This document shows, one piece after another, positions 1,276 to 63,895 of a DNA stretch of 64,000 bases. This DNA is from Eledone cirrhosa. Taxonomy: Eukaryota. The stretch is from contig OZ024740.1 of the NCBI GenBank assembly GCA_964016885.1, positions 193,564,001 through 193,628,000 on the forward strand, given 5' to 3'. The first letter of the stretch is position 1. The number at the start of each line of letters is the position of its first letter. Below the pieces are notes generated by a model. The model saw nothing but the letters and a program-made list of their open reading frames with translations. It did not search any database and was not told the origin of the DNA. Both the position numbers and the translations under genes were made by a program.

Positions 1276-1405
1276 TATCTCTCTCTCTCTCTCTCTCTCT
1301 CTCTCTATATATATATATATATATATATATATATATATATATATATATATATATGAGAGACGTAAAATAAGAAAATTATAAAATTAACTTACTTACTAAA
1401 ATATC

Positions 1406-1487
1406 ACTTCCAACTAATTAGTTTCTGGAATGGAGTAAATATATTTTCCGATGAAGATATATAGAAACATTCCGTCGTCAGGGAAGT
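1406..1487 (-). ncRNA. Type I hammerhead ribozyme
   Basis: acttcc-CTGACGA-cggaatg...cattcca-GAAACTAATTAGTT-ggaagt: 6-bp helix I, long helix II and palindromic helix III. Confidence 0.8.
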
Positions 1488-2249
1488 CTATTCTCAGATA
1501 AGTTTCCAGGCAAAGCGAGGACTCTGGAAACTTATTAAAAAATAATTCAGTGGATAGGAAATAGCAAAGCGTGGAGTGAATTCCTAGCTATTGAGAAACT
1601 CACTGCCTCTGCGTCTGTGGCAAATTCAAAAAGAATCAATCACGTGACATCGAGGTCAATCAGTGGAAAGTGGTTTGCTAATAAGACAGCGGCCTGCCTA
1701 CTACCATAGCATCAGTCATGGCCAATATTGCTCGACAAAAAATTTGGAGATAATTATAAAGAATTAATATCTAGTAACATATATATACATACAGATGCAT
1801 ATCAATGCTAGCAAATATATAGGTTTTGTCTTAGTAACATTATGGTTCAATGCATGGAGTTGCAGAACAATAATATGAGAGACGTCAAATAAGAAAATTA
1901 TAAAATTAACTTACTTACTAAAGTATATATATGTTACTAGATACTAATGTATATATATGTTACTAGATATTAATTCTTTATAATTATCTCCAAATTATTT
2001 GTCGAGCAATATTGGCCATTAGTGCTGCTATGGTAGTAGGCAGGCCGCTGTCTTATTAGCAAACCACTTTCCACCGATTGACCTCGATGTCACGTGATTG
2101 ATTCTTTTTGAATTTGCCACAGACGCAGAGGCAGTGATTTTCTTAATGGCTAGGAATTCAGTCTACGCTTTGCTATTTCCTATCCACTGAATTATTTTTT
2201 AATAAGTTTCCAGAGTCCTCGCTTTGCCTGGAAACTTAGCTGAGAATAG

Positions 2250-2331
2250 ACTTCCCTGACGACGCAATGTTTCCATATATCTTCTTCGGAAAATATATTT
2301 ACTCCATTCCAGAAACTAATTTGTTGGAAGT
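2250..2331 (+). ncRNA. Type I hammerhead ribozyme (inverted copy)
   Basis: acttcc-CTGACGA...cattcca-GAAACTAATTTGTT-ggaagt. Confidence 0.75.
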
Positions 2332-2599
2332 GATATTTTAGTAAGTAAGTTAATTTTATAATTTTCTTATTTTACGTCTCTCATATTATTGTTCTGCAAC
2401 CCCATGCATTGAACCACAATGTTACTAAGACAAAACCTATATATTTGCTAGCATTGATATGCATCTGTATGTATATATATGTTACTAGATATTAATTCTT
2501 TATAAATATATACATATATATATATATATATATATATATATATATATATATATATATATATAAATATATATATATATAGAAAGAGAGAGATAGATAGAT

Positions 2600-60250: not shown

Positions 60251-60539
60251 TTACTGGTAATAAGGTAGTAATACATTACTGCCTACCACTATCTAGGGTG
60301 TGTGTAAAATACTTATAACTGCATAAGGTTTTATATTTACATAACCATAAATGGTATAACTAATACTATATATATATATATATATATGTGTGTGTGTGTG
60401 TGTGTGTGTGTGTGTGTGTGTGAATATGTTCTTTTGTTCTCAAGAGCTACCACAATCCATCGGGTAAATTACCCTTGAATACGGAAAGTGGACATAAGGT
60501 CAATCATCTCATCTCACAGATGTTGCTGCCTGCTTCCGA

Positions 60540-61290
60540 CTCGGAGCGGAGAATATAGGCTGCAGTCAAGGAACTTAATTATATTTAATAGGAAATTTCA
60601 AAAAAGAAAAGGGAAGAGAGTTTCTAAGCCCTAACGCGTCAGAAAAAAAGAAAACTGAGACAATGATCCACCTGACACGGCAAGGGTTCATATAGAAGAA
60701 AGTGGATTAGACGACAGACAGCCACAGTAAGGGGACGCGCAGTTGCGCCCAGAGACCACCATACCGCGCGCAAGCTGACACGCCAGAACCAGCCAGCACT
60801 CACTCAAGTATCTTCAGCGTCGACAGCATCGCCCGACTGCACAGAAGCCTCCTAAATGCATCATCCGCGATCCCCAGAGCAGGCAACGTCACTTCAGCCG
60901 CGTTTGACCAAGCACCGCAAGCTCCAATGGGAAAGCGATGGACCAAGACTCTCCCACCTGTTTCCTTTTCAAGCAGAGCAGTCAACGGAAGGTATTTTTG
61001 TATCTTCTCCGCCGCGATTCAGGCTCTCCCCTGCTCGTATCTCACCGTGACATCTACCACCAACGTCGTCCACCATCTCCTCATTACCAGATCCGGAATG
61101 AGTCTCGCATTGTCCACACGATACGAGGACCCCATAAACCCCTCCAACCGTGGCGTGTGCACTCGTCCGCAATCAGTCGGCATAGCTGGTCGTGCCTGGC
61201 CGAGCGCCTTCTCTTCTAAAGAGGGCACTGGCCACTGATGTGGGCGATTGTCTCCGCAGCCGTCCCACAGCGTCTGCAGGTCTTCGGTCC
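60540..61290 (-). mobile_element. R2/NeSL-superfamily non-LTR 3' fragment
   Basis: ETIAHISGQCP, RHD, LIPDLVM, LVVDVTVRYE and FPIGACGAW restriction-like endonuclease motifs. Confidence 0.75.
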
Positions 61291-62170
61291 GCAACCACCT
61301 CCCGCAAGATATTCCCGGACCGGAAACGTATTGGTTCGCAAGTCAACATGATGACTCTACGGATGTATAATTTTTCTTCCCAATGAAAATGTGGCGAAAT
61401 CCAGTTCAACAAGGATTTCATGTGTGAGTGCCTGACCAGCACAATCTAAAAAATATCTATTCTGCCACTCAAATACACACAGCTTCTCGTTTAAATGTCT
61501 TAACATAGCTATCTGCCGGTACTCAGCTGGATAACGACACTTTCTGCATCATGGCTTCCTAGTGCTTCTGCTGCAATACAAATGTAGCTGTGAATCCATA
61601 CCAGACGCTTTCGCCCACCAACCAGTCATGTTCCAGAGATTGTGTTGCCTCCCACTCCATGTCACTCACAACGATATCATTAAGTATGGCACTTCACATT
61701 TCGCGCTAGTGTGGCTAGACCGAGGTTATCAAAAATGCCAGGTTACATCACAGCATTCCCAAACTATTTATCCATAAGTTTATCCATATACGACTTAAAT
61801 CTATTCCATCTTCTTTTCTTTGTAAATAATCGAAAGATAAATCGTCCTACCCTGTGTCTAATAGCAATTACCTCATGTATACTCTCACTAGTAATGGGTA
61901 TGGTTCTTAAAGTACCGATGACTCGATCAGATGTCTATTGAGAAGGCAATGACTCGGGTTTTATCCGTTTTGTCGTTGTTCCCGCTCTCATTATATATAT
62001 ATATATATATATATTTATATATATATATATATATATATATATATATATATATATATATATATATATATATATATATATATATATGTATATATATATATAT
62101 ATATATATGAGTGCGTGTCTGTGGGCATGAGTGTGTATGTTTGTATATATATATATATATATATATATAT

Positions 62171-63895
62171 AATGTATAATAAACAATACAATATAATTAC
62201 CTCATTACCAGAGGTTCCCCGAATAAGACGAATACGAAAAGAAACGTCCTCATTCGTTCGTCGGACAAGTTAATATAAAACATAGTGAAATATTTGGAAA
62301 GTCTCCTCAAGAAATATATTAAAAAATATAAAAAAATATATAAAGAATATAAGGAAATATAGTTAGGTATGTGTATATGAGTGTATATACACTCACAAAT
62401 GTACATATGTGTGTATGTACAAGTGCAAGTGTATGGTGAAAATGTGTGCGTAAGTACACATATAAGGGCAAGTATATTTGTGTATATGTGAACACAAATA
62501 CGGATATAATATGAGTTAAAAAAGAAAATGATAATATAGTTGACACGCATCCAGATACAGGTATTAAATACACATACGAGTATGAAAGCATGCGTATAAA
62601 CACACACACACGCGCGGTCACTTATATGCGGAAGATAAAGAAGGAAGGGAGTATAATGGTAAAAAGGAGTGTCATTCTCGATATATGTATAAAAATGAAA
62701 CAATATATGAGAATGAAAAAAATGTTTAAATGAAAGAGAAAGTAATCAATTGATTACTTTCTCTTTATTTTATACTAGCAGTAAAGCCCGGCGTTGCTCG
62801 GGGTCGCTCAGTAGCTGTGTTAAAGTTACAATGTTAAGTTTCTTTCTTGGCTTAAAAACTGTAGTGTCTACTGTGCAGACTTGCATGTGGTGTTTTTGAT
62901 TAATATTCCCTCAACCAACAATATGCCTTATGAAGTTAAGAAAACATAACGATAACCCGAATGTTATAACAAAAGAGGATGCTGGGGATAGAAACTGCAC
63001 TGGTTATTTATTAACAAAGATCGAAAATGTAAACACTGCAACGCAGAGAAAAACATTAGCGTAACCAAATTATCAGTTATGTCTGTCTGCACGCCTATAT
63101 CACCTCTCTGCACGACTGTCTGTCTGCACGCCTATATCACCTCTCTGCACGACTGTCTGTCTGCACGCCTATATCACCTCTCTGCACGACTGTCTGTACG
63201 CGTATATCACCTCTCTGCACGACTGTCTGTCTGCACGACTGTCTGTCTGCACGCCTAACGACGAAATATTTGCTTGTTTTACGTAGTCTTTAAATAGACT
63301 TGTTTTCAAGTAAAAATATTGTTTTAAAATGCTTTTAAATGGAAATGAAGCTAAACGGAAGTTTAGTGTTCGAACTGATGAATTTTGCAGGTCAATATTT
63401 TGCTGGCTCGACAACTGTTCGTGTATTGTGTTAATGTCATTTTAAACGCTGAGAAAGCCAGCGTAATTTTTTACGTAAGACGCTCAATGTAAACAGAACA
63501 AAGGGAAATAACTGATCACTTACGCTCAAAAATCGATACATTATATTCGATTTCGTCACATAGGGTGGGTCAATTTGAAATATTTTTTTTCCGATGTCTT
63601 CGCTAGGGCTCAATGTACAAGAATAGCAATTTCGGTGCAATTCCGTCAGAGATTCTAAGAGGAGATGTGTGCCAAAAATCGATAGACAGACAGACAACCA
63701 CAGTTTTATATATATAGATTACCTTGTCCGACGAACGAATGAGGACGTTTTTTTCGTATTCGTTTTATTCGGGAAACCTCTGGTAATGAGGTAATTATAT
63801 TGTATTGTTTATTATACATTAAATTTTGCTCTTGTACTTACATAGAGCACTCTTCACTCCTATGACTTTTTCAATTTTCAACGGAAACTTCAATA
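62171..63895. mobile_element. Head-to-head pLTR-like pair (hammerheads at 62200-62270 (-) and 63719-63794 (+)) split by a Helitron
   Basis: 62171-62269 is the inverted copy of 63723-63820. ccttgt-CCGACGA...GAAACCTCTGGTA-atgagg is related to the 28780 family. Confidence 0.72.
62775..63718 (-). mobile_element. Complete non-autonomous Helitron with an internal 37-bp minisatellite
   Basis: A|TCTATATATATAAAAC...CCCGAGCAACGCCGGGCTTTACTGCTAG|T, with the minisatellite at 63080-63255. Confidence 0.88.

What the first reader, a model, noticed from the sequence alone, without database searches (positions are those of the whole stretch)
1351..63895. Every hammerhead-bearing inverted pair has the same polarity (left arm minus, right arm plus)
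Seen at 1351-2505, 8231-9248, 29803-31993, 54288-55528, 62171-63895 and probably 43081-45150: the RNA-sense 3' ends point outward into the flanking AT-rich/(TA)n DNA. Known: Penelope elements often carry inverted 5' pLTRs. Inference: both target-site ends prime cDNA synthesis and the two cDNAs join centrally, a signature shared by four or more families including non-coding ones.
Basis: partly seen in the sequence, partly recalled or inferred. Interest (0 to 1): 0.7.

Follow-up and report, generated by a model that had tools for sequence, protein, structure and literature searches.

The report
Head-to-head Penelope retroelement insertions
The mirror-image, ribozyme-bearing repeats in this animal DNA all face outward, which is the already described head-to-head shape of Penelope-type jumping-gene insertions, here also seen in non-coding tandem parasites, and the unequal ends of the two halves suggest each half was copied separately from its own side of the cut.

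Summary
Real, but the polarity is known. Five of five homologous hammerhead-bearing inverted pairs are left-minus/right-plus (four families), plus a sixth stub pair at 12281-12466; 43081-45150 is not a homologous pair. Penelope-clade loci from other animals agree: 11 of 77 metagenome loci and 8 pairs in 9 genome-bin loci are head-to-head; one same-family convergent contact was seen, across a (TA)n between two separate pairs. Arkhipova et al. 2013 already call head-to-head the most frequent arrangement and explain it by self-priming. What this window adds: the signature extends to non-coding retrozyme-like arrays; each insertion has its own junction; arms end at two alternative 3' sites; and in 4 of 6 pairs neither arm is contained in the other, which simple fold-back cannot give. 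Not proven; a hairpin intermediate cut by the endonuclease remains (0.27). The scan found this architecture before in other genomes.

The parts
1351..1922 (-). Pair A left arm: 1.1 units of a 524-bp non-coding hammerhead unit; short 3' end (+130 from the core) in (TA)n
1923..1946 (.). Pair A junction insert, 24 nt, about 21 of them a copy of the start of the right arm
1947..2503 (+). Pair A right arm; core at 2256; long 3' end (+247) in (TA)n
8231..8850 (-). Pair B left arm, about 1.45 units of a 428-bp unit; core 8493; short 3' end (+262)
8852..9248 (+). Pair B right arm; starts 4 nt before core 8856 after one untemplated base; long 3' end (+312)
12281..12340 (-).
12339..12466 (+). Pair J right arm; 42 of 42 identical to left arm, then about 85 nt read as tail (inferred)
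29800..30834 (-). Pair C left arm: 2.45 units of a 422-bp hammerhead unit (retrozyme-like array); short 3' end (+246)
30834..31993 (+). Pair C right arm: 2.75 units; starts 11 nt before core 30845; 1-nt overlap at junction; long 3' end (+304)
28703..28852 (-). Family H terminal repeat with exact hammerhead core (28832) and long tail; reference for the polarity of F
32087..32190 (-). Second family H terminal repeat (core 32171), short 3' end; direct, not inverted, to 28748-28852
32404..33370 (-). 5'-truncated, broken Penelope-type ORF (thumb and GIY-YIG part)
33371..33865 (+). Arm K: very high-copy plus-strand end with degenerate hammerhead (33683), two 3' ends (33788, about 33860), abutting the minus ORF head to head; no homology to H
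43075..43136 (-). Locus D hammerhead (core 43124); no homologous partner
43786..45021 (+). Locus D 5'-truncated, broken Penelope-type ORF
54289..54441 (-). Pair E left arm (core 54389)
54442..55527 (+). Pair E right arm (core 55426); middle 54897-55380 has a second copy at 11204-11677
62172..62749 (-). Pair F left arm (degenerate core 62264), short 3' end; 62278-62749 assigned to this arm only weakly
62724..62775 (.). Near-perfect 26+26-nt palindrome without loop at the F junction
63720..63870 (+). Pair F right arm; starts about 8 nt before core 63728 behind a later 0.95-kb insertion; long tail matching family H
9842..9997 (-). Solo arm G with exact hammerhead core (9937); no homologous partner

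Best explanation
These are insertions made by the RT/GIY-YIG protein of Penelope-like elements, of its own ends and of non-coding retrozyme-like passengers. The enzyme nicks both strands of an AT-rich or (TA)n target (shown in vitro for Poseidon). Each 3'-OH primes a cDNA at one of two alternative start sites downstream of the hammerhead (both-strand extension and two start sites shown in vitro; use of one site per end inferred here). Both cDNAs come from the same source RNA species (inferred from shared rare variants). Each stops on its own, one often close to the 5' side of the hammerhead. The two free cDNA 3' ends are then joined in the middle with 0-2 nt of microhomology, a templated patch or a short snap-back (scars seen; the joining enzyme is inferred). 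Because both RNA 3' ends are tied to the target, an inverted product can only be head-to-head. Whether one multimeric RNA or two copies serve as template is open.
For: Polarity 6 of 6 in the window, 11 of 77 head-to-head against 0 of 77 same-family convergent in metagenome loci although more flank lay on the right (53.9 kb vs 27.9 kb), 8 head-to-head pairs in 4 of 9 genome-bin loci. Junctions differ per insertion: 7 different opposite-strand joints of the B/C unit among 15 joints shown of 41 in other runs. Two conserved 3' end sites, one per arm, in A, B, C, F and probably J; the same two sites in B and C and in F and H. Neither arm is contained in the other in A, B, F, J. Arms of C share variants that 79-98% of family depth in run X18 lacks; J arms 42 of 42 against 38 of 42 to the outside copy. 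PMC11167929: both strands cleaved and extended, two RT start sites equal to the tail ends, predicted dimer.
Against: C and E are nested, as are L023 and one L083 mini-pair, and F and L002 have loop-free palindromes, all as self-priming predicts. Identity of the arms is equally expected from fold-back. The long ORF pair of L083 has equal 3' ends and E has no clear one-sided tail. Non-nesting is secure only in A and B; in F and J it rests on weak or inferred assignments. No target-site duplication could be shown (E: best 7-mer, reached by 262 of 1000 shuffles), and no empty site was seen. One same-family convergent contact (98%) exists in L085. The in vitro paper did not show both ends extended on one molecule or an inverted product in the text I read.
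Confidence: 0.6

Rival explanations
1. Self-priming: an antisense RNA or the first cDNA folds back and is extended into a hairpin, and the endonuclease resolves it with staggered cuts that leave the tail on one side (Arkhipova et al. 2013; tail as resolution product in Craig et al. 2021). Only one target end need prime.
For: Published reading of junction palindromes. Loop-free palindrome at F and L002; nested arms in C, E, L023; equal unit count in the two arms of C; arms share rare variants.
Against: A, B, F, J are not nested, which needs extra cuts or template switches; in B the arm that would be the copy is about 360 nt longer than its template arm. B, C, J junctions offer only 0-2 nt for snap-back. 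In F the tail on the right arm has no template in the left arm.
Confidence: 0.27
2. Two independent insertions, or a later inversion or gene conversion, produce the pairs, and polarity reflects 3' ends seeking (TA)n or selective loss.
For: Independent insertions do pile up in the same (TA)n and give convergent neighbours (L001, L004, L058, L085; 31993/32087; LINE ends at 1206/2599). Heterologous head-to-head neighbours exist (33370/33371; D).
Against: Arms abut directly at truncated 5' ends with no target DNA between; arms are 95-100% alike against about 80% between B and C and share rare variants; an inverted repeat is equally stable in DNA whichever way its RNA reads (reasoning).
Confidence: 0.09
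3. The pairs are assembly or library fold-back chimeras.
For: C arms are 100% identical over 1035 nt and its own junction is not among the 15 joints shown of 41; several metagenome inversions sit at contig starts.
Against: A, B, E, F arms differ by 3-5% with indels and later insertions; chimeras would not choose one polarity or the same two 3' end sites in B and C; opposite-strand joints occur in raw reads of another sample and in contigs.
Confidence: 0.04

Closest known systems
Inverted pLTR / head-to-head insertions of endonuclease-bearing Penelope-like elements (Arkhipova et al. 2013, PMC3846280; Craig et al. 2021, PMC8557442)
   Same: Inverted 5'-truncated copy at the 5' end, head-to-head polarity, tail on one arm, junction palindromes, microsatellite targets, type I hammerheads in the terminal repeat.
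   Different: Tails here are 50-117 nt rather than 30-40; several pairs are non-coding and one has tandem multimers in both arms; non-nested arms fit the published self-priming reading poorly.
Poseidon PAc in vitro mechanism (Frangieh et al. 2024, PMC11167929)
   Same: AT-rich target, both strands cut and extended, two internal RT start sites that define the tail, hammerhead cleavage not required (arm ends here are not at the cleavage site either).
   Different: That work reports no homology between start site and target, whereas arm ends here run into TA-rich bases so that short microhomology cannot be excluded; it does not, in the parts read, derive the inverted structure.
Animal non-LTR retrozymes (Cervera and de la Pena 2020, PMC7229834; Li et al. 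2026, 10.64898/2026.07.22.740005)
   Same: Non-coding tandem units of a few hundred bp each with a type I hammerhead and short palindromic stem III (pair C); proposed PLE dependence.
   Different: Term searches of their main texts show no description of head-to-head inverted arrays; A and B have fewer than two consecutive hammerhead units per arm; circular RNA not tested.
Dual minimal hammerheads on opposite strands (Cervera and de la Pena 2014, PMC4209133)
   Same: Pairs of hammerheads 100-700 bp apart on opposite strands, tied to truncated PLEs.
   Different: The passage read gives no polarity or mechanism.
L1 twin priming (Ostertag and Kazazian 2001; recalled, not read)
   Same: Both target ends prime; central join with little microhomology; same outward polarity.
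   Different: L1 arms are non-overlapping parts of one RNA with a poly(A) end; here both arms carry the same hammerhead segment. L008 and the second element of L031 look closer to the L1 pattern.

Membership tests
Endonuclease-bearing Penelope-like elements | Single ORF with RT followed by C-terminal GIY-YIG endonuclease | tested here: met
   Two broken ORFs (32404-33370 minus, 43786-45021 plus) match 47 proteins of 494-871 aa at E<=1e-19 whose consensus has GLYRDDGL and a C-terminal Cys/His-flanked Y-x-G-x-T region. My Pfam scans named no family; the Penelope label rests on recalled motifs plus downstream hammerheads in the related loci. Applies to the coding loci, not to A, B, C, J.
Endonuclease-bearing Penelope-like elements | Type I hammerhead motif in the terminal repeat | tested here: met
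   Descriptor matches with stems I-III, 9 exact-core against 0 in 20 shuffles (also 16). Degenerate in F, J, K. No Rfam match.
Endonuclease-bearing Penelope-like elements | Inverted 5'-truncated copy joined head-to-head | tested here: met
   6 of 6 pairs
Endonuclease-bearing Penelope-like elements | Tail extension at one end only | tested here: met
   A, B, C, F clear, J inferred, E unclear; lengths 50-117 nt
Endonuclease-bearing Penelope-like elements | Target-site duplication | tested here: inconclusive
   Hidden by (TA)n in five pairs; chance-level 7-mer at E
Animal non-LTR retrozymes | At least two consecutive non-coding units each with a complete type I hammerhead | tested here: met
   Pair C only: 422-bp unit, 2 cores in the left arm and 3 in the right; no long ORF of normal composition there
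Animal non-LTR retrozymes | Same criterion for pairs A and B | tested here: not met
   1.1-1.45 units and one core per arm; they work like retrozyme monomers but fail the two-unit rule of the 2026 preprint
Animal non-LTR retrozymes | Self-cleavage and circular RNA | not tested
L1-type twin priming products | Non-overlapping arms from one RNA and a poly(A) 3' end | tested here: not met
   Arms overlap by 42-1035 nt and end in (TA)n
TIR transposons / MITEs | Matching fixed termini with a constant internal region | tested here: not met
   Outer ends differ by 50-117 nt; inner junctions differ between copies of one family

The most novel reading that the evidence does not exclude
One Penelope complex primes both ends of the cut in a coordinated way, one end at the long start site and one at the short, and can carry two different RNAs, so that single events fuse two families head to head (candidates: minus ORF and arm K at 33370/33371, locus D, L019) and non-coding retrozyme multimers are written into the genome by the same two-ended reaction. 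That would replace antisense self-priming as the origin of inverted pLTRs and give a route to family chimeras.
Probability: 0.2. Interest if true: 0.6.

Novelty: new member of a known kind. Interest (0 to 1): 0.3.

Why it matters
The polarity itself is in print. How Penelope-like elements build their inverted ends is still called undefined (PMC8557442). The arm-end bookkeeping used here (nested or not, which arm has the tail, junction scar) is a cheap genome-wide test between self-priming and two-ended priming, and this host has very many copies. Finding the Penelope insertion signature on non-coding tandem arrays also gives structural support to the claim, so far made from distribution and phylogeny, that animal retrozymes are mobilised by these elements.

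Tried and rejected
No whole genome is held, so the genome-wide tally in the host could not be run. Rfam found no hammerhead. Pfam named neither ORF nor 5 homologues; PDB sequence search gave one chance hit at E 0.28. Viral contigs held no relative (55 pattern matches, none confirmed). A second homologous arm for D, for G, and between K and H or the ORF's 3' region was sought and not found (scores within shuffles). A target-site duplication at E was chance-level. Plus-strand core at 15762 and minus 24925 lack stems and were rejected; 60120+ and 58091- are degenerate solo candidates. Runs X1-X17 hold only small shares of the query; two of them were laid and not used to name any habitat or taxon. 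Joints between unit C and arm K could not be given a polarity and were not counted. Earlier notes by place and by sequence gave nothing relevant; two word look-ups were empty. PMC9977147, PMC8969392 and PMC13282606 (passages) added nothing on mechanism. No complex or structure prediction was run.
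Full report
Setting. The window is AT-rich, microsatellite-dense animal DNA. It looks like octopus to me from recalled repeat style; no call tested that. No whole genome is held, so generality was tested with public runs and with Penelope-clade loci from other collections.

Observation. Self-BLAST with microsatellites masked listed every inverted repeat within 6 kb (20 rows). Five pairs carry hammerhead-type cores and all are left minus, right plus: A (425 of 440 identical), B (95% over 171), C (100% over 1035), E (95% over 154), F (95% over 106). A strict type I descriptor gives 9 exact-core matches in the window and 0 in each of 20 shuffles; a looser one adds 8493, 43124, 54389 and, with one mismatch, 63728; 2256, 55426 and 32171 are fixed by homology. 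F has a mutated core in both arms, but its downstream part matches family H, which has an exact core. A sixth pair, J (12281-12466), was missed: it keeps only the 3' part of a decayed hammerhead and has the same polarity by homology to 26695-26760. One-sided p is 0.031 for 5 of 5 and 0.016 for 6 of 6. Against the finding: 43081-45150 has a minus hammerhead and a plus ORF but no homologous second arm. Rfam does not recognise these motifs (none among 150 of 290 rows shown), folding z-scores run from -2.5 to +0.2, and cleavage is untested.

Identity. [quoted passage not shown] A and B/C are non-coding units of 524 and 422-428 bp; C has 2.45 and 2.75 tandem units and meets the retrozyme definition of the 2026 preprint.

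Generality. A metagenome scan returned the best 80 of 257 confirmed stretches as 77 loci, ORF on plus. Classified by eye, 11 of 77 hold a same-family or abutting inverted piece on the left (L002, L004, L008, L016, L019 at 81% and so of uncertain family, L023, L031, L033, L050, L072, L073; L023 and part of L031 are one insertion, L031 is counted for its second element) and 0 of 77 a same-family inverted piece on the right, although more flank lay on the right (53.9 vs 27.9 kb). Convergent neighbours occur in L001, L004 and L058, each between different families meeting at their tails. Weak internal palindromes (68-83%) and inverted repeats far from the element were left out of this count. Nine loci from genome bins (evidently animal-type DNA) hold 8 same-family head-to-head pairs in L079, L082, L083 (four) and L085 (two), one more unverified, and one same-family convergent contact at 98% in L085, across a (TA)n between two head-to-head pairs, plus one at 75-77%. 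Laying four runs on one C unit and the neighbouring element showed 15 of 41 joints; 7 are opposite-strand joints within the unit, all at different places. Two must be 5'-to-5' because they lie too close to the left edge of the stretch (where only that kind can be seen; none was shown at the right edge), three are read as 5'-to-5' because their short pieces share one end at 31971, where most family copies appear to carry the library's AATT cut site (inference), two are unassigned, and none was assigned 3'-to-3'.

Anatomy that bears on mechanism. 3' ends, counted from the core: A +130 and +247, B +262 and +312, C +246 and +304, F +92 and at least +142, J about 85 nt apart (inferred), E +100 and +101 (unclear). 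B and C use the same two sites, as do F and H, and arm K has two ends in other runs. No arm ends at the ribozyme cleavage site. Junctions: C 1 nt overlap, J 2 nt, B one extra base, A a 24-nt patch largely copied from the right arm's start, F a loop-free 26-nt palindrome. Nesting: in A, B, F and J the arm that reaches further 5' is the one with the shorter 3' end, so neither is a copy of the other; this is secure for A and B, weaker for F and J. C and E are nested, as are L023 and one L083 mini-pair; the long L083 pair has equal ends. Both arms come from one source: the C unit differs from 98%, 91% and 79% of family depth in run X18 at three sites, yet all its copies are identical; J arms are 42 of 42 identical against 38 of 42 to the outside copy.

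Mechanism. Shown elsewhere: purified Poseidon protein cuts and extends both strands of AT-rich DNA, starts at two internal RNA sites equal to the genomic tail ends, needs no ribozyme cleavage, and is predicted to be a dimer (PMC11167929; abstract and main text read). Seen here: polarity, private junctions, two end sites, non-nested arms, same-source arms. Inferred: each target end primes its own cDNA, one at each site, and the free ends are joined by a microhomology-tolerant polymerase; templated patches and snap-backs resemble polymerase-theta scars (recalled). This gives 0.6. The published alternative is self-priming on an antisense template (PMC3846280; passages and Discussion read) with the tail left by endonuclease resolution (PMC8557442; passages and one section read). 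It explains C, E and the palindromes, and the other pairs only with added cuts or switches (0.27). Independent insertions (0.09) and artefact (0.04) fit badly. No target-site duplication or empty site was shown.

Heterologous head-to-head neighbours. At 33370/33371 the minus ORF abuts a very high-copy plus arm K: a contig of run X1 leaves the window at 33370 and one of X18 begins at 33371, and K shows no homology to H or to the ORF's 3' region. D and L019 may be similar. If single events, they would require two RNAs; they may equally be nested insertions with deletion, or K may be the ORF's own family. Unresolved.

Known or new. PMC3846280 says head-to-head is the most frequently observed arrangement; PMC8557442 calls the inverted 5'-truncated copy typical; PMC4209133 (passages) notes opposite-strand hammerhead pairs. 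Eight searches turned up no paper that states two-ended priming for these elements or head-to-head retrozyme arrays; PMC7229834 (passages; listing) and the 2026 preprint (part 1 of 5 and term search) lack such terms in their main text. The library lacks most subscription papers, including the 2005 and 2006 Penelope reviews, I read no supplements and could see no figures, so the model may be in print. L1 twin priming is recalled, not read. The scan has reported the same architecture in other genomes.

Verdict. Observation confirmed apart from the 'probable' pair; polarity already known; modest new evidence on mechanism and on non-coding passengers. Interest 0.3.

Noticed in passing
L001-L077; window 28727-, 63845+, 33814+, 12424+, 55545+: A GAGCACT motif is strongly sense-biased in Penelope-clade loci (104 plus, 10 minus) and lies 81-118 nt after the core in 32 of 48 hammerheads (33 within 220 nt); variants sit in the tails of H, F, K, J and perhaps E. 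A candidate protein-binding or RT-start signal and a second polarity marker.
   Followed up: partly
window pairs A, B, C, F, J: The longer 3' end is on the right arm in all five pairs where it can be told; a post hoc strand bias without explanation.
   Followed up: no
window 56063-58004: 616-bp unit, about 3.15 tandem copies, 99.7-99.8% identical, ending in (TA)n, minus-sense by the tail motif, with no exact hammerhead core; a degenerate hammerhead lies at 58091 minus.
   Followed up: partly
window 36777-36932: 156-bp hairpin beside (TA)n with the tail motif on the left arm's minus strand; possibly another head-to-head stub, no hammerhead.
   Followed up: partly
window 1206-1277 and 2599-2670: Convergent 3' ends (92%) of a LINE (RVT_1 hit at 4426-5388; Tx1-like by recall) flank pair A through (TC)n(TA)n: a convergent inverted pair of a non-hammerhead family.
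   Followed up: partly
window 11062-11204: 31-bp perfect (about 45-bp imperfect) inverted repeat around (TA)28, between solo arm G and a copy of the E middle; origin unknown.
   Followed up: no
window 62773-63719: 0.95-kb insertion inside the right arm of F whose ends recall Helentron-associated non-autonomous elements (label recalled), with an internal 37-bp tandem repeat.
   Followed up: no
window 25111-25940 and 49254-49660: Two further inverted repeats (68%; 33-bp termini next to TA) without hammerheads; polarity not assignable.
   Followed up: no
window 58479-58549: tRNA-like sequence just above the Rfam cut-off, probably a SINE head; similar-type 159-bp tandem at 35329-35923 and copies at 455-647, 16174-16361, 27182-27375, 40601-40793.
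   Followed up: no
L079, L080, L083, L085 (genome contigs): Records titled as bacterial MAGs contain Penelope-type elements, (TA)n tracts and nested insertions, which points to animal host DNA in the bins.
   Followed up: partly
L008 and L031 3305-3410: Inverted internal ORF pieces with little or no overlap with the plus arm, closer to L1-type twin priming than to duplicated terminal repeats.
   Followed up: partly
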